Assembly (NCBI GenBank): GCA_003820375.1
Contig: RPQH01000016.1
Span: 11-64,010 of the forward strand
Source of the DNA: Ignavibacteriota bacterium
GTDB taxonomy: Bacteria; Bacteroidota; Ignavibacteria; Tepidaquicellales; OLB5
Direction of reading: 5' to 3'
DNA length: 64,000 bases
The first letter of the stretch is position 1. Every line of letters starts with the position of its first letter. Position numbers and translations under genes: made by a program. The notes below the pieces were generated by a model. The model searched no databases, was not told where the DNA came from, and saw only the letters and a list, made by a program, of their open reading frames with translations. Below are positions 24,462 through 49,398 of the stretch, piece by piece.

Positions 24462-25151
24462 TTACGGGTTCTGACCGAAGTTTACTACACCATTCACATG
24501 CAGGTCAGTACGTTTAAATGTACCCGATGAATCCATCACTACACGGTGACAGTCTACACATGTAGTAATTGTGTTATTCGGGTCATGTGTGTACAACGGA
24601 AATGGTTTCGGATTCGGATTTCCTGTAACAGGATTACCATGGCATGAACCGCAAATTACATTTTCCGGCTCCATCCATTTTACAGTCATCTGATTTCCGC
24701 CGGCAAAACCACCATGGCAATATACATCTGCACATGACCGGTCATTTGCATCATACTGCGGATTGGGTATATAACCTCCATATATCCGCTGTTTTGCAAG
24801 CGGTCCGAATGTTATTTCAGCCCTGTTATCAGGATTTGTTCTGTCTATGTGTGTTGAATCCCAATAATTATTTACCGGAATATGGCACTCGCCGCACTCT
24901 ACCTTTGCAGAGAACCTTGTTGCCATTAAATGCTGAACATGAGCACCTACACCCGGGTTGCTCCTGGATGTATCGCCGTTCAATGCTTTAGGCGGGTTCG
25001 GATTGTCGCCTCTTCCGTGGCATAATGTACACTCTCCCGATGACCTTGATGGTGCAAGTATATCATCTTCAAGCTCACTGCATCCCTGGTAAATAAATAC
25101 CAATGCAGTAATTAAAAATAAAACTGAGTATAATTTCATATGTTTTTTCAT
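24462..25151 (-). CDS. Multihaem c-type cytochrome lipoprotein (4 CXXCH + 1 CX4CH)
   Basis: Lipobox VFIYQGC. Motifs CTLCH, CGECH, CADVYCH, CGSCH, CVDCH. The paired CX4CH...CXXCH arrangement resembles the Geobacter-type repeat domain. Start taken at MKKHMKLY, 1 nt after the upstream stop. Confidence 0.8.
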   Translation of the reverse strand: MKKHMKLYSVLFLITALVFIYQGCSELEDDILAPSRSSGECTLCHGRGDNPNPPKALNGDTSRSNPGVGAHVQHLMATRFSAKVECGECHIPVNNYWDSTHIDRTNPDNRAEITFGPLAKQRIYGGYIPNPQYDANDRSCADVYCHGGFAGGNQMTVKWMEPENVICGSCHGNPVTGNPNPKPFPLYTHDPNNTITTCVDCHRVVMDSSGTFKRTDLHVNGVVNFGQNP

Positions 25152-25152
25152 A

Positions 25153-26454
25153 TTACTTGAACCTCCTGTCGCCATCGGTGCTGTTATGGCAGTAACCGCA
25201 GAAACCTACACCGCTGATTCCGTTTGGTCTTGCATTAGCATCACTGTGGCATGTATAACAAATTGCACCCTGTGTTTCGTGCCATATTCCCTTATTATCA
25301 TTTTCAAAACCTGATTCATGTGTTCTCGGGTTAGTACCTTTCACACCGTCGTTATCTATATGGCAAGTAATACAGATGGGGTCACCGCCCTGTGTATCGT
25401 GGCAGCTCTGGCATGATTCAATATCTTTTCTTGCTATTGTAGCATGGAGCCCGCCGCCTGTACCGACACCAAAGGTTGTAAACATCGGCTGTTTATGGCT
25501 GTCAGGTGCAATACTGCTGAGTGTCTGCCCGTTATCGCTATGGCATGTATTACAGAATGTTACAGGGTCATGACAGGTCTTGCACTCAAACCGCTTGTGG
25601 TTTGCGTCAAGCCCGTGTGTGAACCTGTAATTCAGGTCGTGAGCTGTCGTAAGCTTTTGCAGGTCGTGCCTGTCAATTCTTGTAGCCCCTTCCTTGCTGT
25701 AATAAGGAGCGTAGAAGTTTTCGCTTGTATTATTTCCCGTAACGTTTACAGGACTGTGGCATACCTGGCAGAAGTTATCGCTGTGGCACATCATACAATT
25801 ATTCTTGTTTGAGCTTGGGTCAAATACAACCTTATGCTCATTTAAGAAATTAGACTGCCTGTGGCTTTTCGGGAACAGGTTAGTCAGGTTTGTATGGCAT
25901 GATTCACAGTTATTGCCTGCCTGCTGGCTCAAGTTAACTGCCGGCTGGTTCTGCTCTGTATGGCAGGTACTGCAAACTTCCATCGGCGGAAAAGCCGTCG
26001 GTGATTCTTTTGCAAATTTAACATTATCAACGCCAACGTGGCATGCTGTGCATTCCTGCTTTTGTGTAACAACATGGAATTTATGTGAAAAAGCAAGTTC
26101 CTTTTTGGTCGGCGGGAATTTCTTAGCCGCACCTTCAACATGGCAGAAATTACAGTTCTTCTGGTCGGTAACATCGTGGCATGCACTGCATTCGTTATGT
26201 CCGGGGTTCAGGTCATCTTTTGCAGAGACTGAAGTGTTTGCTTTAACGTGGCAGTCTTTACATGCAACGGCAGCTTCTTTTACGTGAAACTTATGGTCGA
26301 ACTTTATTACTTTGCTGTGGTCTTCCTGTGCTGCAGACGGATATACGCTGACTTTCTTCATGTCCGTCTTTGTATCCTTCATCAAATAAGCAGTTGAAGA
26401 TAGAAATACAAGGACACCAGCAAGAAGTAAAAAGTATAGTTTATTAATTTTCAT
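25153..26454 (-). CDS. Periplasmic 14-haem c-type cytochrome (c7/c3-like repeats)
   Basis: 14 CXXCH motifs. Recurrent F.HK.H....C..CH units resemble polymerised c7-type domains. Signal peptide present. Confidence 0.9.
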   Translation of the reverse strand: MKINKLYFLLLAGVLVFLSSTAYLMKDTKTDMKKVSVYPSAAQEDHSKVIKFDHKFHVKEAAVACKDCHVKANTSVSAKDDLNPGHNECSACHDVTDQKNCNFCHVEGAAKKFPPTKKELAFSHKFHVVTQKQECTACHVGVDNVKFAKESPTAFPPMEVCSTCHTEQNQPAVNLSQQAGNNCESCHTNLTNLFPKSHRQSNFLNEHKVVFDPSSNKNNCMMCHSDNFCQVCHSPVNVTGNNTSENFYAPYYSKEGATRIDRHDLQKLTTAHDLNYRFTHGLDANHKRFECKTCHDPVTFCNTCHSDNGQTLSSIAPDSHKQPMFTTFGVGTGGGLHATIARKDIESCQSCHDTQGGDPICITCHIDNDGVKGTNPRTHESGFENDNKGIWHETQGAICYTCHSDANARPNGISGVGFCGYCHNSTDGDRRFK

Positions 26455-26468
26455 AATTTTTTTTATAC

Positions 26469-27776
26469 TTAAAATTTCTTAAATAACCAATAGCTGAAAC
26501 CTGCCATGAAGCGGGTGTCAGTCTTATAGATCCGGTTTTTTATAAATTGTCCCTGTAAATCAATTGTAAACTGCCTGATTGGCCTGTAAGTAATGCCAAT
26601 CATTCCGCTCAGTGAATTTACCTTATCAACAAAATAATCACCAAGCTCGTATCTTGCATAACTGATAGCAGCATTCCCTGAAAGTTTTTCGGGAACTATC
26701 TGGTTTGTGTAATAGGCGTTAATACCGTCAGACTCTCCGGAATATCCCATATATCTTGTAAAGTTAATTCCGAAGTTTGCATGACTGACACCTGCCTGCA
26801 CCCTTATTGAGTTATCATCATCATATATCACATCCGAAACTCTTACGAATGCATTCATACCGTTATTGAAAGTATAATCTGCACCACCTTCGATTTCCAT
26901 GTTCTGCTTATGTGTAAATACCCAGAAAATTGTATTATAAGCTAACTGCGGCTGCCTGTATGTGTAACCGGCAGAGAGGTTCAGATTTTTCATAACGTTT
27001 GTTCTTACATTGAACTCACCGTAATAAAATTTCTTCAGGTTAATATCATAATATGCATTGCCGTAGAAGTTATGTTTTCCGAGGTAAGTATAATTGAAAT
27101 CTAATCCTGCGAGCTGTTCGGCAGGAGTATCATAATCAATTAAAACTTCCTGCAGATTGAATAAGCTGTCAGGACGCAGTGTATAATATGAAGCAAGCTT
27201 ACGGTGCTTGTTGGTGTAGCTCAATGATGCCATAAGGTCTTTCACTCCATAGTAAGCAAACTGTGCACCCACCATGTAGTTTTCCTTGGCTTTAAAATGG
27301 CTAGTGAAGGTATAATCGTAAGGAGTAAGCGCTCCTCCAAAGCCTGTTAACTGAAATTCTTTGTTCTTTCCTGCTTTTATCTTAAGTAATAAACCGTCTA
27401 TTGGTCCTTTGCCAACACCGGCATAAACATACTGCCTGCCTGCTTTTACATCAAGAACGTTGAACAGGTTCGTTCCTTTAATGTACAGGTTATATGCCCT
27501 GTATTTAAATGCATCTTCCGATGTTTTGTTCATCACATCTTCTTCAGCCTGCAGAGATGTATTAAAGCTCCATTGCTTCTGCTGAACTTCAAAAAGAAGG
27601 TTCTGGTAAGCTTTCATGTGGAATGTTTTAGGACCGGCATTTCCTGCTGAGTCAGCAAGAGAGTCAGCTCTTTCCCATCCGTACACATTTGTGCTGAACC
27701 TAAGATTCAAGTTTTGAGAATACAATACAGGTAGTGATACAAAGAAAAGAAAAACAAAAAGTAGTATTTTTTTCAT
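26469..27776 (-). CDS. Predicted outer-membrane beta-barrel (porin-like) protein embedded among the cytochromes
   Basis: Signal peptide, alternating aromatic/polar beta-strand pattern throughout, C-terminal ...FSYWLFKKF. Confidence 0.65.
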   Translation of the reverse strand: MKKILLFVFLFFVSLPVLYSQNLNLRFSTNVYGWERADSLADSAGNAGPKTFHMKAYQNLLFEVQQKQWSFNTSLQAEEDVMNKTSEDAFKYRAYNLYIKGTNLFNVLDVKAGRQYVYAGVGKGPIDGLLLKIKAGKNKEFQLTGFGGALTPYDYTFTSHFKAKENYMVGAQFAYYGVKDLMASLSYTNKHRKLASYYTLRPDSLFNLQEVLIDYDTPAEQLAGLDFNYTYLGKHNFYGNAYYDINLKKFYYGEFNVRTNVMKNLNLSAGYTYRQPQLAYNTIFWVFTHKQNMEIEGGADYTFNNGMNAFVRVSDVIYDDDNSIRVQAGVSHANFGINFTRYMGYSGESDGINAYYTNQIVPEKLSGNAAISYARYELGDYFVDKVNSLSGMIGITYRPIRQFTIDLQGQFIKNRIYKTDTRFMAGFSYWLFKKF

Positions 27777-27800
27777 ATCATTTTATTTTTTAAAATAGGA

Positions 27801-27824
27801 TACGCCCGCAGCTCAGCGGGCGTA
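27801..27824 (-). terminator. GC-rich hairpin (possible intra-operon attenuator or terminator)
   Basis: TACGCCCGC (27801-27809) / GCGGGCGTA (27816-27824). The T-run is better on the plus strand than on the coding (minus) strand. Confidence 0.4.
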
Positions 27825-27839
27825 ATTTTTAATTAACAC

Positions 27840-28403
27840 TTACTTCTTCGGATGCTGAATCTTTGCCCATGCTTCATCAAAGTTGAATGCTTTGAATGTC
27901 GGACTATCAGCATTATGGCATGTTGTACAGAAAGCTGCTTTATCTGAATGCTCAAGTAAACCGTTTGCAACTGCCTGTGCATGGTCTTTCATAATAGACA
28001 TAGATTTATAAGCTGAACCGGGACCGTGGCATGTTTCGCACTGTACACCTTTTGTTTTGTCAAATGTTGCATCAAGCTCAGCTTCTACCAGTTCTTTTCC
28101 AAGTGTATGGCATTTTACGCACTGCGGAGTTTCTGCTGCTGCAGTGGTGAATCCTTTATCTTTAGCTATCTTATCTGCCTCAGGTGTGGTAAGAACTGTA
28201 TATGCCTGTGAGTGTTTTGATTCCTGCCATATTTCGAGCTGTTTTCCTTTTGCATCGCCTTTATGGCACATACCGGCGCATTTATCTACACCGATATATT
28301 TGAAATCACCGGCAGCTTTACCTGTATCACCGGTAAAGGCAGAAAAAGAAATGAAGGCAACTAAAAAGATTATAGTTGCCGGTAAATAAATTTTCTTATT
28401 CAT
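27840..28403 (-). CDS. Tetrahaem c-type cytochrome, cytochrome c554-family-like
   Basis: CAGMCH (CX3CH), CVKCH, CETCHGPGS, CTTCH. Signal peptide present. Confidence 0.85.
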   Translation of the reverse strand: MNKKIYLPATIIFLVAFISFSAFTGDTGKAAGDFKYIGVDKCAGMCHKGDAKGKQLEIWQESKHSQAYTVLTTPEADKIAKDKGFTTAAAETPQCVKCHTLGKELVEAELDATFDKTKGVQCETCHGPGSAYKSMSIMKDHAQAVANGLLEHSDKAAFCTTCHNADSPTFKAFNFDEAWAKIQHPKK

Positions 28404-28552
28404 GGTTGATTAATTTAGTTTGAATAATTCAAGTTAATTAAGTTGGTTAAATAATAAAAGATAAAAAGTTACTTATCTTTATTCACTTGTTATACTTTGG
28501 AGTAGTATTTATTGTTCTTCACTCCAAAATTAAAAAATTGTTGATTACTGCT

Positions 28553-28788
28553 ACCTCACCCCCCAACCCCCTCTCCATCCACGCAGTGCGGGACTTCGCA
28601 AGCTCAGCATAGAGAGGGGGAGATTCTGAGGATTTATACTCTTCTACTCCCTCCTCCACTTGGAGAGGGGAGATTCTGAGCTTTTAAGCTCTTCTACTAC
28701 CTCTCTCCATTTGGAGGAAAGCAAGAAGAATTTTTAATCACCTGCATCTCCCCCTCTCCAAGTGGAGAGGGGGTTGGGGGGGTGAGGT
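28553..28788. repeat. Nested palindromic repeat element inside the cytochrome cluster
   Basis: Outer arms ACCTCACCCCCCAACCCCCTCTCCA (28553-28577) / TGGAGAGGGGGTTGGGGGGGTGAGGT (28763-28788). Two internal units of about 50 bp contain GGAGAGGGGAGATTCTGAG...CTCTTCTACT.CCTC. Confidence 0.85.
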
Positions 28789-28817
28789 TTTAAAAATTTG
28801 CTTAAGACCGCAATATT

Positions 28818-29987
28818 TTAGTTCTTTTTTAATAACCCGTGTTTTTCGAAAAACGGGAAAATTTTATCGAACTGCCTTAAAAGAATAAAAGGTATTGCAA
28901 TAATTAAAACCGATACAATCAATCCTTCTTTATCAAATAAGCCCGGGAAATATTCAGTAAATCCACGCATACTTTTTGAAACGAGCTGACCGCCGATAAC
29001 CACATTCCAGCGCATAAGCAGAACCTGTATCAAAAGCATACCTGAAGATAACCATATCATAAAATTTTTTATTCTTGTGTCGAACTTAAAAAGCGAAGTT
29101 ACGCAAAGCAATAAAAACGGTATAACCGAAAAAACTCCAATTTGCAGGTAGACATATGAAACCAAAAGCTTTCCGTCTATGAGCTCTCTTAAGATTGTCC
29201 ACCTTTCTGTGTTCTCATAAGCAATTGAAAGAACTTCCATAAGCTCAAGCACAACAGCAATAATCATAAATCCCCACAGCCATTTTCCCATAAGATTTAG
29301 GCATTCCTGGTCAACCGGTTTTTTTCTCAGCCAGTGTACAAACTGGTATAAAAATATAAGAACAGAAAGACCCGATACTATTGCCGAGAAAATGAATATG
29401 ATGAACATAAGCGGTGTTGACCACCAGAGATTAGCTTTAATTGAACCAAAAAGAAAACCGACGTAACCGTGAAGTATGCATGCAACCGGGATACCGAAAC
29501 CTGCAAGGAAAATAATAAGCTTTTTATCAAACTCTTTTGCTTTATCAGATTTAACGGTAACACCCATTGTAAGAATATAATAAAGCTTCTTCATAATACC
29601 GCGTGAGCTGTTATACTTGTCTATGATTTCTTCACGGTAGCAAAACCAGACTTCAAGAACAACAATCAGCAGGTAAAAAGTATAAACAAAGCCAAAGCCG
29701 CTCATAGCAGATGAAAAATTCGGTGTTAGCATTATATTCATTGCACGCATCGGGCTTCCAAGATGGTTTAAAAGCGGCACCGTTGCAAACAATAAAAATG
29801 CAAGTGATGATACAAGCGCAAACTTGGCAATCGATTTCAGCTTTTCCATACCAAATACATGATAGAATGAGGATACTATAAAAGCTCCCGCCACCATACC
29901 TGTTATATAAGGATACAGCACTATCATGACTGTCCATGTTATATGCAGTTCATTCGGGAATACAAAACCTTCAGCAATATGTTCCAT
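28818..29987 (-). CDS. NrfD/PsrC-family polytopic membrane quinol-interacting subunit
   Basis: About 10 TM helices. The N-terminus W.VMIVLYPYITGMVAGAF is typical of the NrfD family. Its start overlaps the FeS-subunit stop by 1 nt. Confidence 0.85.
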   Translation of the reverse strand: MEHIAEGFVFPNELHITWTVMIVLYPYITGMVAGAFIVSSFYHVFGMEKLKSIAKFALVSSLAFLLFATVPLLNHLGSPMRAMNIMLTPNFSSAMSGFGFVYTFYLLIVVLEVWFCYREEIIDKYNSSRGIMKKLYYILTMGVTVKSDKAKEFDKKLIIFLAGFGIPVACILHGYVGFLFGSIKANLWWSTPLMFIIFIFSAIVSGLSVLIFLYQFVHWLRKKPVDQECLNLMGKWLWGFMIIAVVLELMEVLSIAYENTERWTILRELIDGKLLVSYVYLQIGVFSVIPFLLLCVTSLFKFDTRIKNFMIWLSSGMLLIQVLLMRWNVVIGGQLVSKSMRGFTEYFPGLFDKEGLIVSVLIIAIPFILLRQFDKIFPFFEKHGLLKKN

Positions 29988-30778
29988 TATTTAACTTCCT
30001 TATCTAATCCAATATAATAACATTTAGGATTTGTACCGAGCTCAGCTTTAAGTAAACCATATCTTCTCTGGTTAAGGATTTTCCTGATTTTACTGTTCGG
30101 GTCTTTAAGATTACCGAAAATTCTTGCATTACGCGGACATGCATTAACACATGCGGGCGCTTCACCTTTATGAATACGGTGATAGCACAGTGTACATTTA
30201 TCGGCAATTCCTTTTTCTTCATCAATGTACCTGCATCCATACGGGCATGCCTGGACACAGTAGCCGCATCCAACGCAGCGTTCCTTATCGATTAGCACAA
30301 CACCATCGGGTGATTCATATGACGCTCCCACGGGACATACCTGTGTGCATGCAGAATCATAACAATGGTTGCACAGCTTTGGTACAAAAAATGCTTTTAC
30401 AATATCATTGCTGTCGAAGTTATCCGATTGGAAACTTTCAATTGCACCTTTGGGAGAATCAACTCGTATCTCGCCTTTGCTGTCAATCTCATATCTTTCA
30501 ACCCATGTTCTGAAATAAGATTCGGGGACATTGTTCTCAACCTTGCATGCTCTTACGCATGCTCCGCATCCGATACATCTTGTTGTATCAACAATAAAAC
30601 CCCAGTCATATTTAAGCAAGTCTTCATAGTTATCTACAACAATATCCTTATCTCCCTTGCCAAAAGCGAAGAACGAACCGCAAAGTACGCCGGCAGCAGA
30701 ATACAGACCAAGCCTTAGAAACTGGCGGCGTTCCATTTTCGCAGACTCTGAATCGTTTAGTTTTTCTTCTTTTTCCAT
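29987..30778 (-). CDS. Tat-exported 4x[4Fe-4S] ferredoxin-type subunit (NrfC/PsrB-like)
   Basis: Twin-arginine motif RRQFLRLG. Four Cys clusters: CIGCGACVRAC, CNHCYDSACTQVCP, CVGCGYCVQACP, CTLCYHR...ACVNACP. Start taken at MEKEEKL rather than the extended ORF to 30841. Confidence 0.88.
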   Translation of the reverse strand: MEKEEKLNDSESAKMERRQFLRLGLYSAAGVLCGSFFAFGKGDKDIVVDNYEDLLKYDWGFIVDTTRCIGCGACVRACKVENNVPESYFRTWVERYEIDSKGEIRVDSPKGAIESFQSDNFDSNDIVKAFFVPKLCNHCYDSACTQVCPVGASYESPDGVVLIDKERCVGCGYCVQACPYGCRYIDEEKGIADKCTLCYHRIHKGEAPACVNACPRNARIFGNLKDPNSKIRKILNQRRYGLLKAELGTNPKCYYIGLDKEVK

Positions 30779-30791
30779 GATGTGTTTGAGA

Positions 30792-32060
30792 TTAATGACA
30801 TTGTTTACAAAAATCTTCCTTATGACATTTAGCACATACATCTTTTCCCTTTTGGGAAACTACATCCTTATGGGTTTCTTCAAATCCTTTAGGATGTGGT
30901 ATTTCAACTTTATGGCAGTTTGCACATGAGTTCTGCTTGTGACAGAATTCACATGAAGACTTATTTTGAGCTGCTGACTCCGGGTGCAGCTTAGACCAGC
31001 TTGGTACATGCGATACCGGCTTTGTTTTCAAATGGCATGATGAACACTGGTTAGTTGTATGGCACTTCTGGCAAAGCTGCGAATTATCCTTTGTAAAACT
31101 TTTATGCTCACGTGTCCAATTTTTAGGATGAGGGTCTTCTTTAGTATTCTGATTCATGTCGTGAATCTGGTCAGCATGGCATTTCAGGCAAATTTTCTCA
31201 TCTGATTTTTCAATAATATTCAGGTTGCCGATATGCGACGGCCAGTCTATCTTCGGCGGATACTTTTCATCCTTGAATGATTTTTTCTCATGGCATAAGA
31301 GACAGAACTTTACATTTCCGTTTTTATATATCCTGCCTGTAGTCTCATTTTCTTTATGATATAAATGGCACGTTCTGCAGTCAATATATTTATGATGCGG
31401 ACGCACCTCAAAGCTTTTTACAACACTTGAATGACAGTCTTTACATTCAAATATTGCAGGATGGTCTGCAACTTCTTTAAAGCTTTTTTCGGGTTTCTTG
31501 TTATGGCATTCAGTGCATTTATACACTATTGGGTGAATGCGTGACTGCTTTACTTCCGTTAAAAGAAAAACCGGCTCATGAGGACTGTGGCACTCTATAC
31601 ATTTGGTTCCCTTATTGGTTACATTAAGGAATTTATAGTGCTCGTCCTGGTCAATCTGCGGAAAATCACTCGGCCTGGCTTTAAGCTTTCTGTGACAGAA
31701 GAGGCACCCTTCCAGCTTGAATTCTCTTGGCATTACAGCCTGTTCTTTTGTAATTGTGCCAAGGCTGTCTTTATGATAAGTTACGTGCAGGTTACCTGCT
31801 CCATGGCAATCAACACATGGTACATTATAATGAGCATCTTTACCGTGAAGCTGGTAAATCCCCTCATGACAACTTTTGCATGTGTTGCTGTTTTGGTTTA
31901 TTATCGGTAGTGCACGGTTCTGGTTATTTGCTTCCCACCTGTAATGACCATGCAGCCCGAAGTTTTCAGGCAATGCAATCTGCCGGGCAATAAAACCAAT
32001 TACTCCCAAAACCACGATGATTGAGAAAATCCTCACAATATGTGATTTATCTTTAAACAC
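30792..32060 (-). CDS. Membrane-anchored 15-haem c-type cytochrome
   Basis: N-terminal TM helix and 15 CXXCH motifs. The protein ends in ...CKQCH. Confidence 0.9.
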   Translation of the reverse strand: MFKDKSHIVRIFSIIVVLGVIGFIARQIALPENFGLHGHYRWEANNQNRALPIINQNSNTCKSCHEGIYQLHGKDAHYNVPCVDCHGAGNLHVTYHKDSLGTITKEQAVMPREFKLEGCLFCHRKLKARPSDFPQIDQDEHYKFLNVTNKGTKCIECHSPHEPVFLLTEVKQSRIHPIVYKCTECHNKKPEKSFKEVADHPAIFECKDCHSSVVKSFEVRPHHKYIDCRTCHLYHKENETTGRIYKNGNVKFCLLCHEKKSFKDEKYPPKIDWPSHIGNLNIIEKSDEKICLKCHADQIHDMNQNTKEDPHPKNWTREHKSFTKDNSQLCQKCHTTNQCSSCHLKTKPVSHVPSWSKLHPESAAQNKSSCEFCHKQNSCANCHKVEIPHPKGFEETHKDVVSQKGKDVCAKCHKEDFCKQCH

Positions 32061-32107
32061 AATATTTAGAATAAGTTTATAAGAATATTTTTAAGAAAAA
32101 ATTAATA

Positions 32108-34168
32108 TCATTTTATAGATTTAAGTTGTTTAATTTTTTCGGATAATAGGGAGCTCAACAAATCATAATTATGAACATAAATACTCTGGTGCGATGAAAT
32201 ATCGTTAATTATTTTTCTTGTTTCTGTTACTATTGCCTGCTGTTCGCTGTCTAAAGGCATGCCTTTAACTTTTGCAATTTCAGATTCAGCTTCTTTTACT
32301 GCATCTTTAATTTCTTTTTTCCAATCGTTCGCCATTCCTTCATATGAGTTATCATGACATTTTATGCAAATATCATTTTTCGGCTTTATTACATTATCGC
32401 CCTGAGAATGGCAATCTATACAATGTACGCCGCCCTGCTTCATGAAATCCGGCTGGTTCTTCTTGAAATAATTACCGTCATAAACGGATACCTGGAACTC
32501 ATGACACTTTGCACAGGATTCATTGGTCTTCCCTGATGAGTGGTGGCAGCTATTGCAGTTTTCCTTGCTTACAATTAATTTTCCATGGTCCTGTTCATTT
32601 GAATGGCATTTTGCACAGGCTATTCTCTCTTTTACTATATGAAGATTATGAGAGAAATTCATATCATACTTTTTAACGTTGATTTCCTGTATTCCTGAAT
32701 GACAGTTGTAACATTCATTTGGTATCAGCTCAGAGCTAGATTCAAATGCAGGAAGATTGACCGGTGCACCGATAATCGACATAGATTTTTTCATAAGATT
32801 GTAACCGGCTATTAACAGCTTATCGGCAAACTGCACGTTGTGAACGCTTTTTCCTACTTCTACTATTCTTATATTATGGTTTGCTTCATCCAGTGCCTTT
32901 ATTGCTTCCTGTTTGTTGCTGCTTTTCGAATTATAAACCTGGAAGCTTACTGTATTATAAATTGATTTTATTAATGCTACTCTTTTTCCTGAAGCTATTT
33001 CCCACTGTTGTACAAGCCTGTCATATCCTTTTCCGTGGCATTTATCGCACGAGCTTCCGCCGGATTTTGATGTCGTAATATCTTTCTTATCTGTTTCATG
33101 AAATACATGGCATCCTTTGCAGTTTATTCCGTTCATATACATTACGCTGGGTGATTTATCGACGTTGAACCCGTTTTCTCCTGTATATAAACTTACCTGT
33201 GATGTGTGAGCATTTGTATGACAGCTCTGGCAATCAGGCGGGCTGTTTGGGTCAATTTTTTGAATTTTATGCTGTATCTGGCTGTGGCATGTGAAACATT
33301 TCATGCTGTGCTTGGTAATATGAGTTGTATGCATGAACTCGGTATCATCATACCTGTCGAGACGCACTGTTTCAAAATGGCACTGGAAGCATCTTTCTTT
33401 TCCTACTTCACCATTGCCTGCTACTACATTAGAATGGCAATTATTACACTGTATGTTGTTACTTACAACTGATGTATGGTCATACCTGAAATTTGCCATC
33501 TGAATTTTTGATTTGTCACTCCAGTTATGGCAGGTTTTACAATCGGTCAGCTTATCCCATTTATGTTCGGGATCATCTGATTTTTTGAAATGACAATTAA
33601 AGCACGTTGCTTCGGTTACTTCAATATGAGAGCCCTGAACAATCTGTGAATGGCAGCTTGTACATTTAAGCGTTTTGCCCCTCCTCAGGTCTGCCAGGTG
33701 ATTCTTATGGTTAAACTTTATTCCTTTAAAATCATAAGTAGTATCCTGTAAAGCCTGCTTTTCATGGCATCCGCTTCTTGCACATGTGTTATCCGGTATT
33801 TCAGCCCATGGTTTGCGTTTCTTGTAAGACATGGATACGTAATTCACAATCTGAACCAAACCGTTTAGCTTTCCTCTTACAGTTCCGGAAATTCCGGGTT
33901 CAAAATGGCACTCTACGCAATCTATTTTATTATGGGCTGAAGTTCTCCAGCTCTGGTAAAAGGTTTCCATGTAATGACACGTAGGGCAGAAGCTGGGTCT
34001 TGATGTATATTCAGCCGCTGCTGCTGTTATAATAAGCAGGAGCAAAAGAGTTGTTACAGTATATTTTGAAATTCTTATAAACTTAGACCCGCGCTTATAA
34101 AAATCACGAACAGATTTATAAGCCCCCGATAATTTTTTCCCGGTATTTTTAAGTATATTATTTCCCAT
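32108..34168 (-). CDS. NapC/NirT-like membrane-anchored multihaem cytochrome (17 CXXCH + 1 CX4CH)
   Basis: TM helix followed at once by CPTCH...CVECH (NapC/NirT-like entry). CARSGCH. Two helical inserts containing VHNVQFADKLL and VHNYDLLSSLL. Confidence 0.85.
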   Translation of the reverse strand: MGNNILKNTGKKLSGAYKSVRDFYKRGSKFIRISKYTVTTLLLLLIITAAAAEYTSRPSFCPTCHYMETFYQSWRTSAHNKIDCVECHFEPGISGTVRGKLNGLVQIVNYVSMSYKKRKPWAEIPDNTCARSGCHEKQALQDTTYDFKGIKFNHKNHLADLRRGKTLKCTSCHSQIVQGSHIEVTEATCFNCHFKKSDDPEHKWDKLTDCKTCHNWSDKSKIQMANFRYDHTSVVSNNIQCNNCHSNVVAGNGEVGKERCFQCHFETVRLDRYDDTEFMHTTHITKHSMKCFTCHSQIQHKIQKIDPNSPPDCQSCHTNAHTSQVSLYTGENGFNVDKSPSVMYMNGINCKGCHVFHETDKKDITTSKSGGSSCDKCHGKGYDRLVQQWEIASGKRVALIKSIYNTVSFQVYNSKSSNKQEAIKALDEANHNIRIVEVGKSVHNVQFADKLLIAGYNLMKKSMSIIGAPVNLPAFESSSELIPNECYNCHSGIQEINVKKYDMNFSHNLHIVKERIACAKCHSNEQDHGKLIVSKENCNSCHHSSGKTNESCAKCHEFQVSVYDGNYFKKNQPDFMKQGGVHCIDCHSQGDNVIKPKNDICIKCHDNSYEGMANDWKKEIKDAVKEAESEIAKVKGMPLDSEQQAIVTETRKIINDISSHQSIYVHNYDLLSSLLSEKIKQLKSIK

Positions 34169-36308
34169 TTTGCGTTATCTTATTAATTTCTTTTATTGAC
34201 TTATCCAGCAGATCACTTATGACCATATAATTATGAATACCACCGCTTCCATCTGTTTTGATTGCGGCTATTAATTTTTTAGCTGTCTGAACTTTACCTT
34301 TATCTTCTTCACTTAAATTAGAATTCTGTACATTTGCAATTAGACCTGATAAATTTTTTATTTTTGAACTAATATCACTTGTCCACTCTGCTTTCATGCC
34401 TTTGTAAGAAGCATCATGACAATCGGCACATACAGTTTCTTTCGGCTTTGATATTACATTTTTATCAGGTGCGTGGCAGTCTTCACAGGAAACTCCAGCG
34501 GTTTTCATAATATCACTTTCACCTTTTGTACTTGCAATATTGCCGCTGTACGTACCGTTCTGTACCGGGTGACATTTACTGCAATCTTTCCGCAGTTCTT
34601 TATCCTTATGATGACAGCTTGTACAAATATTTGCTTTAATTTGTACTTTGGTAAAGTCTGTATTTGTATGACAGACTTTGCACTCTATATTACTCTTTTT
34701 GCTGTGTAAGCCATGCGGAAAATTTATTGAACCGTATTTTATATTTTCCGGTACTTTATCAAAATTCTTATGACATGACTCACAGTCATTTTTTGTTACA
34801 ATAAGCTTTCTGTGTTCCTGGTCCGAGTGACATTTGGTACACTGTAAAAATTGTTTATGTGTCTGATGAGGAAATTTCTCATCGTTGAATTTTTCTATAC
34901 TCTTCGGCGTTATAGCAAAATGACAGAGGTTGCAGTATTCACTTCCATCGGATAATAATTTACTTCTGCCTGCTTTGAAATTACTGTTTCCGAGACGCTG
35001 TGCAATACCTTCAAGATTACTTGCAGTATTTTTTAACAGGCGGTAAGCATAGTCAACATTGTGAACTGCTTTACCGTTAATCACAAGATTCAAATTATTT
35101 TCCGCATCATCAAGATAATTTTTTTCCGCATCCACATTTTTGCCCTGATTTCTGGCATTATCAACCATCTGCCTCACACTTGTTATACTCGGTGATATTG
35201 TTTTAATTGCTTCATCAAATGAACTTATCCATTTATCAAGCATGCTGCCATAGTTATCGGAGTGGCATTTTACACATGATTGTCTTTTCTCGCTTAATTC
35301 ACTCTTTCCGTCATTATTTAAGTCCAGGTGGCATCCTTCACAGGAAACCTGTGCCGCAAACATTCTGCTCAAAACACTGGTTACACCTCTGCCTTCACTG
35401 CCTATATACATTTCTCTTTGCGGAGAATGCTTGAGTGTATGGCAGTTCTCGCAGTTTGCTTCCAGTGAGCTTATCATCTTTACCTTGCCGTGGCCAATTG
35501 AATTATGGCACTCTTCACAGTCAACTCCATTTTTGGTAATATGAACATTGTGTATCTTTTCATGGTTATCAAACTCCGATGTTCTTTCAACATGGCATTT
35601 GAAACATACTTTCTTATTTACTTCAGCATTACCGGTAGTTACATCTACATGGCACTGAGAACAATCTACCCCGATTTTCAAATAACTTTCATGGCTGAAC
35701 TGAAATCCTTTATGCTCAACAACTTTACGGGGAATTCCATGGCATACATTACAGCTTGTAGCTGAGTGACCTCTTTCAGAACCTTTGAAGTGGCATGTAA
35801 AACATACGTTTTTATTTATTTCAAAATGCTCTTGTTCTTCACCTCTTGCATGACAGCTGGTACAGCGGAGTTTTTTACCTCTTTTTAAATCACCTAAATG
35901 GTCTGAATGATTAAAAGAAATATTCATCTCAAATGCTGTGTTCTTTTTCAGGTCCTGCGATTCATGGCAATCCAAACAAACTTTATCATCTACTTCAGCA
36001 CGCGGACGGGGATTATATGACCCTGCAATATATCTCAGTAAATATGGAGCAGTTAATATTCTCCTGCTCGGATGGCATGTAACACATGACACATCTTTAT
36101 GCTTTGAGTGCGTTGACTGCTCGTAATACGGCTTCATGTAATGACAAACCACACAACCCGGTGAGTAAGCTGAAACAAAATAGTATGCCGCATTTATTAT
36201 AATTAAAAACAAAAACGCTCCGGCAAACAGCTTTATTATCGGATGCTTATAGTTTTTTACCCCGGTATAAATCTTATTCAGAAGATCCTTTATGTTATAC
36301 CTTTTCAT
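34158..36308 (-). CDS. NapC/NirT-like membrane-anchored multihaem cytochrome (20 CXXCH), paralogue of 32108-34168
   Basis: Same architecture: TM, then CVVCH...CVTCH. Helical inserts VHNVDYAYRLL and IHNYMVISDLL. Confidence 0.85.
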   Translation of the reverse strand: MKRYNIKDLLNKIYTGVKNYKHPIIKLFAGAFLFLIIINAAYYFVSAYSPGCVVCHYMKPYYEQSTHSKHKDVSCVTCHPSRRILTAPYLLRYIAGSYNPRPRAEVDDKVCLDCHESQDLKKNTAFEMNISFNHSDHLGDLKRGKKLRCTSCHARGEEQEHFEINKNVCFTCHFKGSERGHSATSCNVCHGIPRKVVEHKGFQFSHESYLKIGVDCSQCHVDVTTGNAEVNKKVCFKCHVERTSEFDNHEKIHNVHITKNGVDCEECHNSIGHGKVKMISSLEANCENCHTLKHSPQREMYIGSEGRGVTSVLSRMFAAQVSCEGCHLDLNNDGKSELSEKRQSCVKCHSDNYGSMLDKWISSFDEAIKTISPSITSVRQMVDNARNQGKNVDAEKNYLDDAENNLNLVINGKAVHNVDYAYRLLKNTASNLEGIAQRLGNSNFKAGRSKLLSDGSEYCNLCHFAITPKSIEKFNDEKFPHQTHKQFLQCTKCHSDQEHRKLIVTKNDCESCHKNFDKVPENIKYGSINFPHGLHSKKSNIECKVCHTNTDFTKVQIKANICTSCHHKDKELRKDCSKCHPVQNGTYSGNIASTKGESDIMKTAGVSCEDCHAPDKNVISKPKETVCADCHDASYKGMKAEWTSDISSKIKNLSGLIANVQNSNLSEEDKGKVQTAKKLIAAIKTDGSGGIHNYMVISDLLDKSIKEINKITQNGK

Positions 36309-37239
36309 TTTCTTCGTCTTTCTCCGCAGCTCTTTGCTTCATAATTTCTTCATATTCAAGCGGATGCTCATCAAGCATCTCTTTTTTTGTTACTTTACCG
36401 TTCAGCCAAACTTTGCTCATAGGAAACTTATGAGGATTCAGATGGACATTATAAAAATGCCATCCTATAATTACAAGCGTAGCGAGCAAAGCTTCATCGC
36501 TGTGCATTTCGCGTGCTATTGCATGAACATAATTTGTTACCATGTCCGGTCCGAATGAAAGATTTATTTCACCTATCCAAACAGGCTCAAACTTCCCCTG
36601 GAAAAGCCACATAATTGTTCCCGTTCCAATCATCATAATCAATCCCCAGTAAACAGCCCAATAATCGAATTTCTCTACATAGCTGAACCTGCCGTATTTA
36701 ACTTTTTCCTTCCTTATTCCCAGGTAATATTTTAGCTGGTTTATTACATCACTGAAATCCCTTAAGCTTGGTAAAAGCTCATAAAAATCTTTTCTTCCGG
36801 CCCGTGACCAGAATGAATATATTAGATGATAAACACCCACAAATATCATGACCAGTGCAAACAAGTGATGAACTGCACGTGCTCCCGGGGGACCTCCAAA
36901 CCAGTTAATAATGAACTGGAAAAAATCACTTTTCGGAAATTTCAAAGGAATGCCTGTCAGTATAAGCATTACTGTTGATGACAAAAGCAAAATATGCTGG
37001 AATCTGAAATTCCATCCAAACCTTGTAAATACTTCTGCCTTATCTTCATTCTTTGGGTCATCCTTTTTTTCAACAGGAGTTTCTATTATATCAGATTCAT
37101 TCTTTTCCTTTTCAAGAAGCTCTTCATATTCATGGCTCACTTCTTCGCGTATTTGCAGCTCAAGCTCACTAAGCTTTTTCTGCAAACGCTTGTTGACTTC
37201 CTCATTAATTTTATCTTTTATTTTCGTTTCTTCTTCCAT
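36295..37239 (-). CDS. b-type cytochrome membrane subunit (FdnI/HydC, Ni_hydr_CYTB-like) with an acidic/basic N-terminal extension
   Basis: RFGWNFRFQHILLL, four TM helices with conserved His (VHHLF, YHLIY, EMHSDE, WHFYNVH). E/K-rich first 70 aa. C-terminal PMSKVWLNGKVTKKEMLDEHPLEYEEI. Confidence 0.7.
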   Translation of the reverse strand: MEEETKIKDKINEEVNKRLQKKLSELELQIREEVSHEYEELLEKEKNESDIIETPVEKKDDPKNEDKAEVFTRFGWNFRFQHILLLSSTVMLILTGIPLKFPKSDFFQFIINWFGGPPGARAVHHLFALVMIFVGVYHLIYSFWSRAGRKDFYELLPSLRDFSDVINQLKYYLGIRKEKVKYGRFSYVEKFDYWAVYWGLIMMIGTGTIMWLFQGKFEPVWIGEINLSFGPDMVTNYVHAIAREMHSDEALLATLVIIGWHFYNVHLNPHKFPMSKVWLNGKVTKKEMLDEHPLEYEEIMKQRAAEKDEENEKV

Positions 37240-37247
37240 GATACCCG

Positions 37248-38318
37248 TTAATGTATTGTTTTATGCTTTAGCCGTTTTATCAGGTCCAGTATTACATGGA
37301 TGGCAAGCATTGTCAGTGTAATTATTGTTAGCCATTTAAATATTGAGCTGATATAATAAATCGGACCGGATTCCTCTGAGTGAGGATTAATATGTATTAG
37401 TCCTTTTGTATAATTTACATTTGCATCCTGGTGGCAATTGCCGCAGGTCTTTACAATGTTATTTGCATGAATTGTAGAGCGCGGGTCACTTTGCGGCCTG
37501 ATATCATGAATACCATGGCAGCTTGCACAATTTGCAACTGTCTTTTCACCGAACTGAACCGCTATACCATGATAACTCTCTTCATATGTTTCAATCTTAT
37601 CTGAGCTTATTCCGTATCTCTCTGTTATTACTTCCGAAGCATGGCAGTCTCCGCATGTGTTATATAGAGCAGTTTTATAAACCGATGATTTGGGGTCGTC
37701 TTTTTTCCTTATAGTATGCTCACCATGGCAATTGGTACAAACAGGGGCATCACTGTTGTTCTGCTCAAACAATGCTGTGCCATGAATGCTATGGCTGTAA
37801 GCACTGTAAATATCAAGATGGCACTGCCCGCACATTTGTGTTATTTTCTTCTTCATTTCTAATTCGGAAAGTGAAGACCTTTTTTTAATATCATGTGAGC
37901 CGTGGCAAGTCTGGCAAATAGGAGTATTAAGATTTCCTTTTAACCTTTCCTGCTGGTGAACGCTTTCCTGGAACTCAGTGTATTTTTCCGTCTCGGGTGC
38001 ACCTACTGGATTATTTTCAAAATGACAGCGTGTGCACTGAACTTTTTTTACATCTTTTTTATGTCCAAGTGCGGTTATTTCTACTATGTCACTGTGGCAA
38101 TCATAACAATTTACGGTGCTATGCGGTGATGTATTTAATGTGCTGTCACTTACATATAAAAATTTTAAATGTCCGTCTTCGGTTTTAGTGCTGAACCCGG
38201 GCTTTCCATGGCATATCAGGCATTTTTGATTCTGTATCTGCGAATAAAGAACAGGTGATATTCCAAATACAATGACAAATACCATAAGTATTGCAATATT
38301 TATAAAACTTTTTCTCAT
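37248..38318 (-). CDS. 9-haem c-type cytochrome with a C-terminal TM anchor
   Basis: Signal peptide, 9 CXXCH motifs (many as C..CHG.H.I), C-terminal hydrophobic WLTIITLTMLAIHVILDLI. Confidence 0.9.
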   Translation of the reverse strand: MRKSFINIAILMVFVIVFGISPVLYSQIQNQKCLICHGKPGFSTKTEDGHLKFLYVSDSTLNTSPHSTVNCYDCHSDIVEITALGHKKDVKKVQCTRCHFENNPVGAPETEKYTEFQESVHQQERLKGNLNTPICQTCHGSHDIKKRSSLSELEMKKKITQMCGQCHLDIYSAYSHSIHGTALFEQNNSDAPVCTNCHGEHTIRKKDDPKSSVYKTALYNTCGDCHASEVITERYGISSDKIETYEESYHGIAVQFGEKTVANCASCHGIHDIRPQSDPRSTIHANNIVKTCGNCHQDANVNYTKGLIHINPHSEESGPIYYISSIFKWLTIITLTMLAIHVILDLIKRLKHKTIH

Positions 38319-39016
38319 TGTTTATCAGATACAAATTCTTTTCCGTAAATTTCTTCATATTCTTCCGGATGCTCGCTCTGCAGTTCCTGCTTGCTAATTT
38401 TTCCTGTGAGCCAAACTTTATTCATTGGAAAAATTTTCGGTGAAAGGTGAACGTCATATATGTGCCATAGAAACAAAACAATAAATATCAGTATACCTTC
38501 GTTACTGTGAACAACCCCGGTAATATCCCATAACCATTTTGGAACTATCATGGCAATACCCCATACTTTGAGCAAAAGAATCAAGCCTGTAACTATCATT
38601 ACAGCACAGCCGAGCACAACTCCCCAATACTGGAATTTCTGAGATATGTTGTATCTTCCTGAACTCGGCTTATTTGTGTTAAGCCCCATGCTGAACTTTA
38701 AGCCGGGTATTAATTTTTTAAAATCTTTTTTCCGGAATTTAAGATGTGAGATCTCTTTGTGTCCTTTATCCGAAAATGTAATATAGAAGGCATGATATAC
38801 ACACAAAGCTATGAGTATAAATGCAAAAAGATTATGAAGTCTTCCTCTTCCCTGAAGACCGCCTTCTATTTCTATCATCATTCTGCCTAACCATGAATCG
38901 TAATATGTCAGCGATAAACCGGTTATCAGCAGCATTATTAATGATACAAATAAAATAACGTGTTGAATACGTTCTGACAGGTTAAACCTGATTACGTATT
39001 CTTCCTGAGTTTTCAT
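38315..39016 (-). CDS. b-type cytochrome membrane subunit (FdnI/HydC-like)
   Basis: RFNLSERIQHVILF, His-bearing TM helices, C-terminal PMNKVWLTGKISKQELQSEHPEEYEEI. ATGA overlap with the downstream 9-haem gene. Confidence 0.75.
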   Translation of the reverse strand: MKTQEEYVIRFNLSERIQHVILFVSLIMLLITGLSLTYYDSWLGRMMIEIEGGLQGRGRLHNLFAFILIALCVYHAFYITFSDKGHKEISHLKFRKKDFKKLIPGLKFSMGLNTNKPSSGRYNISQKFQYWGVVLGCAVMIVTGLILLLKVWGIAMIVPKWLWDITGVVHSNEGILIFIVLFLWHIYDVHLSPKIFPMNKVWLTGKISKQELQSEHPEEYEEIYGKEFVSDKQ

Positions 39017-39057
39017 TTTGTAATGATTATTTTATGGCTGTTTGTTGTTCTTTTTAA

Positions 39058-39942
39058 TTATTTTCCGGCATCCTTTTTAGGATTTATTTCTTCAGCCGGT
39101 ATATTATTATTTCCTTTATCTTCTTTTTTATCTTTTTCAATTTTTATTTCTTCAGGTGCAGGCTTTTTTTCTTCTTTTTTGATATCTTTCTTTTTGATAT
39201 CCTTCTTACCGGTATCTTCTTTTCTGATATTTTCTTTTTTTGTTTCTTTAGCCTGTTCTTTTTCAATTTCTTCAAGCTCTAAAGGATGTTCATGTTCCAT
39301 TTCTTCGCGTGTCAGGTATCCTTTAAACCATGCTTTATTCATCGGGTAAACATCAGGGTTATAAATCACGAAATAGAAATGCCATACAAATATAGCAAGT
39401 GAAGCAAGGATTGCTTCGTAATAATGAATCGCAGTAGCAATATCCATTCCTGAATTTGAAATTACCGGGAGAAATGTGTTTTCAAACCACAACACGCCGC
39501 CTGTAGCACCCATAACAATTGTACCCCATGCAACTGCCCAGTATTCCGCTTTTTCTATATAGCTGAATCTTCCGAACTTGGGTCTGACCTTTGTTTTGCC
39601 TATATAATATCTGAATGCATTATTAAGATCTGTTAAGTCCTGTTTCCTGAACCACATATCTATAATAAATTTTCTGCCTCTTTGGCTGAGTATCACATAG
39701 AATATGTGGTAAAAAGATACTGCGACCATTATTACTGCAGCTATCCTGTGAACATCTCCTCTTAATTCAAAAGCATTTTCGCCAAATAAATTAAATAAAC
39801 CTCTGACCCAAAGGGCTTCCGGAAATTTTAGTGCAAAACCCGTTATTACTAATGTGATGAAACTGGTTAATAGAAAGAAATGCTGTATCCTTTCATTTAA
39901 CGTCATCCTTAAATATTTTTCTTGTTGTTTCTTACTGCTCAT
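39058..39942 (-). CDS. b-type cytochrome membrane subunit (FdnI/HydC-like) with a K/E-rich C-terminal tail
   Basis: LNERIQHFFLL, His-bearing TM helices, PMNKAWFKGYLTREEMEHEHPLELEEI, then a Lys/Glu low-complexity tail of about 65 aa. Confidence 0.75.
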   Translation of the reverse strand: MSSKKQQEKYLRMTLNERIQHFFLLTSFITLVITGFALKFPEALWVRGLFNLFGENAFELRGDVHRIAAVIMVAVSFYHIFYVILSQRGRKFIIDMWFRKQDLTDLNNAFRYYIGKTKVRPKFGRFSYIEKAEYWAVAWGTIVMGATGGVLWFENTFLPVISNSGMDIATAIHYYEAILASLAIFVWHFYFVIYNPDVYPMNKAWFKGYLTREEMEHEHPLELEEIEKEQAKETKKENIRKEDTGKKDIKKKDIKKEEKKPAPEEIKIEKDKKEDKGNNNIPAEEINPKKDAGK

Positions 39943-39956
39943 CTTATCAAATGAAA

Positions 39957-41864
39957 TTATTTTTTCTTTTTAAATTTCTTTGAGAAATCAACTACGTTGT
40001 GTAAAACCATACCGCCAATTACAGCTATAATCATAAATATGTAAAAGTTGGTTACCCAATACATCCACGGATTTTCTTCTTCAGGTTTGACAATATGTAT
40101 CGGTGTATTGAAGAAAGCCGTTACTGCACCGGGATGACACTTTCCGCATGTTTCAGGTAAATTCTTTTTGCTGATTGTTGATAATGAATCCGTTGACGGC
40201 CTGATATTATGGTTACCATGACAGCTTTCACAATTAGCTGCGACTTTTGAACCGCCTCTTACAGCAAGTCCATGGAAACTTTCCAGATAAGACTCGGTTC
40301 TTCCGGTTGGAAGGTCATATTTCTCTGTCATCTCAACCGAGTTATGGCAATCTGAACATAACTGCACCAATCCTTTAGAGCTTGCAATCCTGCTTTCGCT
40401 TTCATCTTTCTTCAGTATCTGGTGGTTACCATGGCAGGTATTGCAGGTAGGTGCATCCGGATTATTTTTATCTAATAAAGACTGTTCATGTATGCTTCCA
40501 TTATAATCACCCAGTTGTTTTGTATGGCAATCTGATTGTCCGCATGTTTTTGCAATATTTTTCTTGTATATCTGAGCTTCAGGGTCATCAAACTTTTTCA
40601 TTTCATGTGCACCATGGCAATCAGAGCATGTTGCGGCATTCAGCTTTCCTTCCTGCAGTGCCCTGTAATGATAGCTGTCTTTATAATTGCTGATAAGAAC
40701 TTCTTCGCCTTTATAATTTTTATGAGGCAGCTTCTGGTCAACATGACAGCTAAGGCAAAGCTCAACCTGGTTTAATTTTGTAAACTCTTTTGATGATACA
40801 ACGGATTTAATATTATGCTCACCGTGGCAGCTTGCACATGTGGGTGCTTTGAAGTTACCCTTCATCAGCTCTGTACCGTGCTGCGATTTTTTAAAATGTT
40901 CAACTTCCTGCTGGTGGCATTTCCCGCATGTTTCAAGCATTTTGGCACGGATTGTGGATGCCTGTGGATTGTTCGGGTCCTGTATCATATGGTCACCATG
41001 ACAATCGGAGCAGCCGGCTGCTTCTTTTCCGCCTTTTTCAATTGAGGCGTGCACACTGGTTTTATAATCCGCAACAAACTTAGCAGACCCTCTGCCTTCA
41101 CCCGGGAACAGCTTTTCATCCAAATGGCATTTTAAACAGCTCTGTGATTCAATTGTCATCTTGCTTGTTAAAATCTGGTGTGAGCCGTGGCAATCTGTAC
41201 ATGTTGGAGCATTTTGGTTTCCCGATTGCAGAACAGTCTGGTGAACGCTGTTGTTAAAATTCTTTTCATGAGAGCCGTGGCATTTACCGCAAGTTGCGGC
41301 AACTTCATTCTTTGAAATTTTCTTTGAGCTGTGTCCGCCTAAGTGACAGCCTTCACAACCTACATTCTTTTTTGCATGAATGCTTGTTTTATATTGCTGT
41401 ATGCCTTTTGTATTGTGGCATTTCTGGCAGTTTTGCGTTTGATTTACTCTTATCTCTTTGCCGGGTGCTACATCATGTTTTGTATGGCAGTCGTAACAGT
41501 TAACCTGCTTATGAACACCGGCTTCAATTCCTTTTAAGCTTTCCTGGTGGCAGCTTTTGCAATCAACTTTTACAGGAGTTTTTGAATGAGGCAGTTCATC
41601 AGGGTTGTAACCTGTATGGCAATCAACGCATTCTGCCATGGAATGCACGGACTTTTTATAAGCTGCCGGATTGACATACATAGATACTTTTTTCCCGTTC
41701 CTGTCAGCAGTCAGGTCAGGGTCTTCATGGCATGCAAAACAAGCTTCTGTGTTTTGGGCTGAGAGTTTCACATAACCGGCGGCGAATAATGAAATAAAAA
41801 CAACTGTGCCGGTAACAAGTAAGCCGAATAAGATATTCCTTAAAAATTTATATCCTGGTTTCAT
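39957..41864 (-). CDS. 19-haem c-type cytochrome (18 CXXCH + 1 CX4CH) with a C-terminal TM anchor
   Basis: Signal/anchor at the N-terminus, motifs counted by eye including CGQSDCH, C-terminal hydrophobic FYIFMIIAVIGGMVL. Confidence 0.9.
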   Translation of the reverse strand: MKPGYKFLRNILFGLLVTGTVVFISLFAAGYVKLSAQNTEACFACHEDPDLTADRNGKKVSMYVNPAAYKKSVHSMAECVDCHTGYNPDELPHSKTPVKVDCKSCHQESLKGIEAGVHKQVNCYDCHTKHDVAPGKEIRVNQTQNCQKCHNTKGIQQYKTSIHAKKNVGCEGCHLGGHSSKKISKNEVAATCGKCHGSHEKNFNNSVHQTVLQSGNQNAPTCTDCHGSHQILTSKMTIESQSCLKCHLDEKLFPGEGRGSAKFVADYKTSVHASIEKGGKEAAGCSDCHGDHMIQDPNNPQASTIRAKMLETCGKCHQQEVEHFKKSQHGTELMKGNFKAPTCASCHGEHNIKSVVSSKEFTKLNQVELCLSCHVDQKLPHKNYKGEEVLISNYKDSYHYRALQEGKLNAATCSDCHGAHEMKKFDDPEAQIYKKNIAKTCGQSDCHTKQLGDYNGSIHEQSLLDKNNPDAPTCNTCHGNHQILKKDESESRIASSKGLVQLCSDCHNSVEMTEKYDLPTGRTESYLESFHGLAVRGGSKVAANCESCHGNHNIRPSTDSLSTISKKNLPETCGKCHPGAVTAFFNTPIHIVKPEEENPWMYWVTNFYIFMIIAVIGGMVLHNVVDFSKKFKKKK

Positions 41865-42211
41865 TTTTCTACAAATATTTCATCAAGCGTTTTTACTAGT
41901 TCGCTTAATCTTAACGGTTCAGATATATATTTTACACCTTTATCTTCGTTCTTTTCAGAGTCAAGAGAGGGCAGGCAGATCATGGGAATCCCAATAAACC
42001 TGTTTTTTATCATATCCTTAGTATCTTTACTGATATCCACATCCATGATAATGCAGTCATAATCATAACCAAGTTCATCGAAAATTTGTTCATCAACCTT
42101 ATATGCATGACAGCATGAAACCAAATAATTTGACAATGTAAAAGTTTTCTTTATTAAATTGCAAATTGGCGGTTTAAGGCAAAATATTAGTACTTTGAAT
42201 TGTTTTCCCAT
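41861..42211 (-). CDS. Degenerate CheY-like receiver (pseudo-receiver) protein, first gene of the cytochrome operon
   Basis: FKVLIF..., DCIIMDVDI (Asp at the phospho-acceptor position), IPMICLPS, ISEPL. It lacks the N-terminal acidic pair and the conserved Lys. ATGA overlap with the next gene. Confidence 0.4.
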   Translation of the reverse strand: MGKQFKVLIFCLKPPICNLIKKTFTLSNYLVSCCHAYKVDEQIFDELGYDYDCIIMDVDISKDTKDMIKNRFIGIPMICLPSLDSEKNEDKGVKYISEPLRLSELVKTLDEIFVEK

Positions 42212-42254: not shown

Positions 42255-42270
42255 GACAATTATAGTGCCA
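42255..42270 (-). promoter_or_regulatory. Sigma-54-like promoter (TGGCAC-N5-TTGTC) upstream of the cytochrome operon
   Basis: The reverse complement of 42255-42270 reads TGGCACTATAATTGTC, about 45 nt upstream of the ATG at 42211. The -24 element is perfect; the -12 element is TTGT rather than TTGC. Confidence 0.4.
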
Positions 42271-47842: not shown

Positions 47843-49186
47843 TTATTCAAAACCATACTCCTTAATCTTCTTATACAATGTCTTCCTGTCAATGCCAAGT
47901 ATCTGGGCTACTTTAAGCTTGTTCCAGTTGTTTTCTTCGAGTATCTTTTTTATATATAATCTTTCTATTTCTTTTAAACCGACATTATCAAGCGAGCTGA
48001 ACGGGTTCTCTTCTGCATTCTCGCTAATCTGAAGGAATTTAAATTCATTTACGTTTAGCTTATCATTCTCCGATGTTATAACAGCTCTTTCAAGAATATT
48101 TTCAAGCTCACGCACATTTCCCTTCCAGTCATATTTCATTAAAATATTTATTGCCTCCGGTGTAATTGAAAGTGTCCTGTTCAGCTTATCACCAAGCTTC
48201 TTTAAGTAATAATCAACCAGCAGGGGAATATCATCTTTCCTTTCATTAAGCGAGGGAAGAGTGAGTGTAACGGTTGTAATCCTGTAATACAAATCTTCCC
48301 TGAATTTCTTCTGCTTTATCATTTCCTTCAGGTTCTGGTTTGTTGCAGATATGAGTCTTATATCAACGCGTTTAACTTTATCGCTTCCCAGAGCTTTAAT
48401 TTCCCATGTTTCCAGTACCCGCAGGAGCTTTGCCTGCAGTGAAAAAGGCATTTCGGCAATTTCATCAAGCAGCAGGGTACCGCCGTTTGCCTGTTCGAAA
48501 ACGCCTTTTTGCGTTTCCACAGCTCCAGTAAACGCACCGCGTATATGACCGAACATTTCGCTTTCAAGCAAATTCTCGGGAATTGCACTGCAATTAATAG
48601 CGACAAATGGTCCGTTCTTTCTTGGACTGTTGTAATGTATTGCCCTTGATACAAGTTCTTTGCCTGTTCCGCTGGGTCCTTCAACCAGTACATTAACATT
48701 TGTTTTTGAAACATTTTTTATGAATTCAAAAACTACCTGCATTTTTTTGCTTTTGCCTACTATACTGCTGAATGAATAATTCTCTTCAACCATAGTACGC
48801 AGGTTCCTGAGCTGGTTAGTCAGGTTTATTTTTTCTGCTGCTTTATCAACTTTAATTATAAACTCTTCAAGATTGAACGGCTTATTTATATAGTCATATG
48901 CACCAAGCTTCATCGATTCGACGGCAGAATTAACCGACCCGTAACCGGTTATCATAATAAAAATACAATCTGCTGGTTTTGTTTTTAGCAGGTCAAGACC
49001 TGAAAGTTTCGGCATCTGCAAATCGGATATTACTATATTATATGTGTTTTCCTTTATCATTAGCTGTGCTTCAGAGCTGTCATTAGATTCATCCACTGCA
49101 TAGCCTTTGCGTGCAAGCACTTTTTTAAGAAGCTTTGTAGAGTTTACTTCATCATCAACGACCAGGATTTTAATGTTTTCATTCAT
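47843..49186 (-). CDS. Sigma-54-dependent response regulator (NtrC family: REC + AAA+ + Fis-type HTH)
   Basis: ILVVDDE...ISDLQMP (REC), GPSGTGKE (Walker A), GAFTGA, LLLDEI (Walker B), C-terminal HTH VAQILGIDRKTLYKKIK. Start taken at MNENIKIL. Confidence 0.9.
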   Translation of the reverse strand: MNENIKILVVDDEVNSTKLLKKVLARKGYAVDESNDSSEAQLMIKENTYNIVISDLQMPKLSGLDLLKTKPADCIFIMITGYGSVNSAVESMKLGAYDYINKPFNLEEFIIKVDKAAEKINLTNQLRNLRTMVEENYSFSSIVGKSKKMQVVFEFIKNVSKTNVNVLVEGPSGTGKELVSRAIHYNSPRKNGPFVAINCSAIPENLLESEMFGHIRGAFTGAVETQKGVFEQANGGTLLLDEIAEMPFSLQAKLLRVLETWEIKALGSDKVKRVDIRLISATNQNLKEMIKQKKFREDLYYRITTVTLTLPSLNERKDDIPLLVDYYLKKLGDKLNRTLSITPEAINILMKYDWKGNVRELENILERAVITSENDKLNVNEFKFLQISENAEENPFSSLDNVGLKEIERLYIKKILEENNWNKLKVAQILGIDRKTLYKKIKEYGFE

Positions 49187-49398
49187 AGATTGCAAAAGTA
49201 TAAAAAAAAACAATAAACTTGTAGTCTTTACCTAATACATGTTAGGAGGTTGACTGTATAAATATTAAACACTTAAGCAACGCTTAATAACCCACTCTTT
49301 TTAGTCCTATATTTCCACACAAAAACAGCAGTTGGTGAAATATTTCCTCAAAGCTGTTTTAATAATCTTTAATTATAAACTAAAAATAAACTCATGAT

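What the first reader, a model, noticed from the sequence alone, without database searches (positions are those of the whole stretch)
24462..42211. 17.7 kb supercluster with about 104 haem-binding motifs: candidate complete, uncharacterised extracellular electron-transfer system
Sixteen co-directional, tightly packed or overlapping minus-strand genes. They encode 8 c-type cytochromes with 5, 14, 4, 15, 18, 20, 9 and 19 CXXCH/CXnCH motifs (my count). They also encode three FdnI/HydC-like b-type cytochromes, a Tat-exported 4-cluster FeS protein, an NrfD-type membrane subunit, and a predicted outer-membrane beta-barrel. Every compartment needed to move electrons from the quinone pool to the cell exterior is represented in one locus. 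These are several alternative inner-membrane quinol-oxidising modules, long periplasmic multihaem 'wires', a barrel, and a lipoprotein cytochrome. I saw no CXXCK motif (NrfA) and no molybdopterin subunit (ACIII, Psr, Ttr). That argues against the well-known enzyme systems that use NrfCD-type modules. The redundancy of inner-membrane entry points is reminiscent of the Geobacter Cbc/ImcH logic, but the gene set and order are different.
Basis: partly seen in the sequence, partly recalled or inferred. Interest (0 to 1): 0.85.

Follow-up and report, generated by a model that had tools for sequence, protein, structure and literature searches.

The report
Ignavibacteria multihaem cytochrome electron-export gene island
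This is a real 104-haem gene cluster from an uncultured Ignavibacteria bacterium that most likely wires membrane quinols to minerals or electrodes outside the cell; clusters of this type have been predicted in this group before but never tested, and here the likely last step is a cytochrome exported by the type IX secretion system.

Summary
Fifteen (not 16) co-directional minus-strand genes at 24462-42211 encode eight c-type cytochromes with 5, 14, 4, 15, 18, 20, 9 and 19 haem motifs. That totals 104, against 2.1±1.4 in shuffled sequences. The other products are three dihaem b cytochromes, a Tat-type NrfC-like FeS protein, an NrfD subunit and a 24-strand outer-membrane barrel.

The window comes from an Ignavibacteria MAG. 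The interpretation as an extracellular electron transfer system is the best-supported reading, but it is not unprecedented.
- The barrel, 14-haem and lipoprotein-cytochrome module has the architecture published for Ignavibacterium album IALB_1837-1840.
- The 19-haem cytochrome plus cytochrome b is a split form of Ignavibacteria proteins already classed as CbcL-family.
- An NrfCD-to-cytochrome route was proposed for Melioribacter in 2013.

The system is also not complete within the given coordinates. Orthologous loci show a conserved core that includes a sigma-54 response regulator (47843-49213) and a nine-haem, OcwA-like cytochrome with a type IX secretion sorting domain (49507-51603). A sigma-54-like promoter motif precedes the first gene in 6 of 6 loci.

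The b/9-haem/b/20-haem genes and the NrfCD/15-haem genes are accessory modules that move, are replaced or are absent in relatives.

No protein reaches any characterised-enzyme threshold. Function and direction of electron flow remain untested.

The parts
42256..42270 (-). Sigma-54-like -24/-12 promoter motif (TGGCACtataaTTGT), 45-59 nt upstream of the first gene
   Evidence: The motif TGG[CT]A[CT]-N5-TTG[CT] lies 29-60 nt upstream of the g15-like gene in the window, L003, L012, L013, L015 and L016 (6 of 6). Background is 0.0023 per 100 nt per strand in these sequences. The -12 element is TTGT rather than the canonical TTGC in the window.
41861..42211 (-). g15: small 116-aa cytoplasmic protein, possibly a degenerate receiver (pseudo-receiver) domain
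   Evidence: No Pfam or NCBIfam hit. It is conserved as the first gene in L003, L012, L013 and L016 (37-44% identity). In L015 the same position holds a stand-alone Response_reg protein, to which g15 aligns weakly (pairwise BLASTP E 2e-4). Its stop overlaps the start of g14 by 4 nt.
39957..41864 (-). g14: 19-haem c-type cytochrome with an N-terminal signal/anchor and a C-terminal transmembrane helix containing His; periplasmic partner of cytochrome b g13 (split CbcL-type unit)
   Evidence: 18 CXXCH plus 1 CX4CH. Transmembrane-like segments at 11-29 and 603-621. It is fused to a Ni_hydr_CYTB domain in L015 (897 aa). Ignavibacteria CbcL-family proteins OGU58019.1 and OGV21847.1 also have 19 CXXCH followed by 6 transmembrane helices (spacing compared).
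39058..39942 (-). g13: dihaem cytochrome b of the FdnI/HydC type (quinol-binding membrane subunit) with a Lys/Glu-rich C-terminal tail
   Evidence: Pfam Ni_hydr_CYTB E 4e-16. It aligns end to end with E. coli FdnI (1kqf_C). Five His residues (positions 21, 65, 79, 173 and 188) are invariant in 12 paralogues and orthologues; four of them align with the FdnI His residues I recall as the haem ligands (His18/57/155/169; from memory, not checked).
38315..39016 (-). g12: second FdnI/HydC-type dihaem cytochrome b, translationally coupled to the 9-haem g11 (accessory module)
   Evidence: Ni_hydr_CYTB E 2e-14. It shares the invariant His set. It overlaps g11 by 4 nt. It is absent from the minimal locus L016.
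37248..38318 (-). g11: 9-haem c-type cytochrome with a signal peptide and a C-terminal transmembrane helix containing His (same haem count as Geobacter CbcL's c domain)
   Evidence: 9 CXXCH. Transmembrane-like segments at 6-24 and 322-340. A 9-haem domain is fused to a g13-like cytochrome b in the Schekmanbacteria locus L005 (637 aa). CbcL is described as 9 CXXCH plus a HydC/FdnI-like domain (PMC6295460).
36295..37239 (-). g10: third FdnI/HydC-type dihaem cytochrome b, with a 70-residue charged N-terminal extension and a loop insertion; overlaps and always precedes the 20-haem g9
   Evidence: Ni_hydr_CYTB E 7e-9. It shares the invariant His set. The g10-g9 pair is conserved in L002, L003, L012, L013 and L015, and in Deltaproteobacteria (L004) and Schekmanbacteria (L005).
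34158..36308 (-). g9: 20-haem membrane-anchored cytochrome made of an NrfH/NapC-like anchor, haem-rich segments and two OcwA/NrfA-like three-helix bundles
   Evidence: 20 CXXCH. 18 haem motifs are invariant in a 44-47-sequence family alignment. A family profile against PDB gives OcwA 6i5b at E 6e-22 (profile 217-439), NrfH 2j7a_C at 5e-11 (N-terminus) and NrfA at 1e-4 to 1e-3. The AlphaFold2 model has pLDDT 77 with helix bundles at 353-438 and 634-715. Best Foldseek matches are 6qvm and 6i5b, then MccA, octahaem nitrite reductase, NrfA and HAO.
32108..34168 (-). g8: 18-haem paralogue of g9 (NrfH-like anchor plus OcwA/NrfA-like modules); part of the conserved core
   Evidence: 17 CXXCH plus 1 CX4CH. 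Pfam Cytochrom_NNT and NCBIfam NrfH E 6e-14, below cut-off. It is retained in the minimal locus L016 (69% identity, 18 haems) and in many phyla.
30792..32060 (-). g7: 15-haem cytochrome with an N-terminal anchor; cytochrome subunit of the NrfCD-type module (accessory, mobile)
   Evidence: 15 CXXCH. Transmembrane-like segment at 7-25. It always travels with g6 and g5. The module lies after g8 in the window, L002 and L003, and before g15 in L012. It is replaced by Rieske/cytochrome b plus an 11-haem cytochrome in L013, and is absent in L016.
29987..30841 (-). g6: Tat-exported NrfC/PsrB/DsrO-like protein with four [4Fe-4S] motifs (true start probably at 30778 or 30736)
   Evidence: Fer4_11 E 8e-26 and an RRQFLR motif. 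NCBIfam scores are TtrB 211 bits (cut-off 416), DsrO 193 (200) and NrfC 159 (378), so none is reached. Best PDB matches are PsrB 2vpw_B at 6e-46, ArrB, and ACIII ActB 6f0k_B.
28818..29987 (-). g5: NrfD-family integral membrane quinol/quinone-interacting subunit (about 8 transmembrane helices)
   Evidence: Pfam NrfD E 1.3e-30. NCBIfam scores for NrfD, DsrP, QrcD and HmcC are all far below cut-offs. Eight hydrophobic segments.
28553..28788 (.). Repeat element in the only long intergenic gap (g5 to g4): G+C-rich terminal inverted repeats enclosing about 51-nt periodic palindromic units; possible transcript boundary or processing site
   Evidence: Perfect 19-nt arms at 28559-28577 and 28763-28781, extended to about 25 nt. 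Four copies of a 22-nt unit are spaced 51 nt apart. It is unique in the window. The 46-aa ORF at 28519-28659 lies inside it.
27840..28403 (-). g4: periplasmic tetrahaem cytochrome of the c554 type (shuttle or adaptor to the outer-membrane complex)
   Evidence: 3 CXXCH plus 1 CX3CH. Pfam Cytochrome_C554 E 1e-14. It always lies immediately upstream of the barrel gene. It corresponds in position to IALB_1840, the 'periplasmic c-Cyt' of PMC4245776.
26469..27776 (-). g3: outer-membrane beta-barrel (about 24 strands), the sheath of the porin-cytochrome complex
   Evidence: No Cys and no Pfam or NCBIfam hit. It has a signal peptide and a C-terminal ...WLFKKF. AlphaFold2 gives pLDDT 81 and 24 strands. 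Foldseek finds only outer-membrane barrels, and 24-strand ushers give the highest query TM-score, 0.50. A family profile finds nothing in PDB sequences at E<=10. 199 homologues were found at E<=0.001; the listed best 120 are all >=51% identical, and every source name given is Ignavibacteria-like (Ignavibacteria/Ignavibacteriae, Chlorobi OLB5, 'Bacteroidetes') and 'hypothetical'.
25153..26454 (-). g2: 14-haem periplasmic cytochrome predicted to thread the barrel
   Evidence: 14 CXXCH in 433 aa, about 31 aa per haem. Orthologues have 14 haems in L012, L013 and L016. IALB_1838 of I. album is described as 400 aa with 14 haems, the largest Pcc periplasmic cytochrome (PMC4245776).
24462..25175 (-). 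g1: lipoprotein cytochrome with 4 CXXCH plus 1 CX4CH, predicted outer-face partner of the barrel (true start probably M9)
   Evidence: Signal peptide followed by Cys, then an acidic stretch (YQGC-SELEDD). The Cys is conserved in L012, L013 and L016. Hits to GSu_C4xC__C2xCH (Pfam E 7e-6; TIGR01904 43.7 bits, cut-off 27). IALB_1837 is likewise an outer-membrane cytochrome with an atypical motif.
47843..49213 (-).
   Evidence: Response_reg, Sigma54_activat (E 4.5e-70) and HTH_8 domains. Orthologues (48-69% identity) lie immediately upstream of the g15-like gene in L003, L013, L015 and L016; in L012 the regulator precedes the relocated NrfCD/15-haem module, which is followed by the g15-like gene.
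49507..51603 (+).
   Evidence: 9 CXXCH. Por_Secre_tail 32.2 bits (cut-off 27), plus FlgD_ig and CHU_C. Best PDB sequence matches are OcwA 6i5b at E 5.9e-10 and 6qvm, the C. ferrireducens S-layer undecahaem cytochrome, at 1.2e-5. Orthologues lie divergently next to the regulator in L016 (54% identity, 9 haems) and L003 (52%), with a more distant relative in L013 (29%, 7 haems). The best 120 homologue clusters listed (of 1164 at E<=1e-5) are all at least 50% identical and about 700 aa long, and all but one carry PF18962.
51742..52551 (+). 269-aa T9SS-sorted protein with one CXXCH, directly downstream of the T9SS cytochrome (role unknown)
   Evidence: Por_Secre_tail E 2.7e-10. One CXXCH.
53755..54972 (-). 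PAS sensor histidine kinase, a possible partner of the response regulator (weak link)
   Evidence: PAS, HisKA and HATPase_c domains. A PAS kinase (37% identity) directly precedes the regulator in L015.

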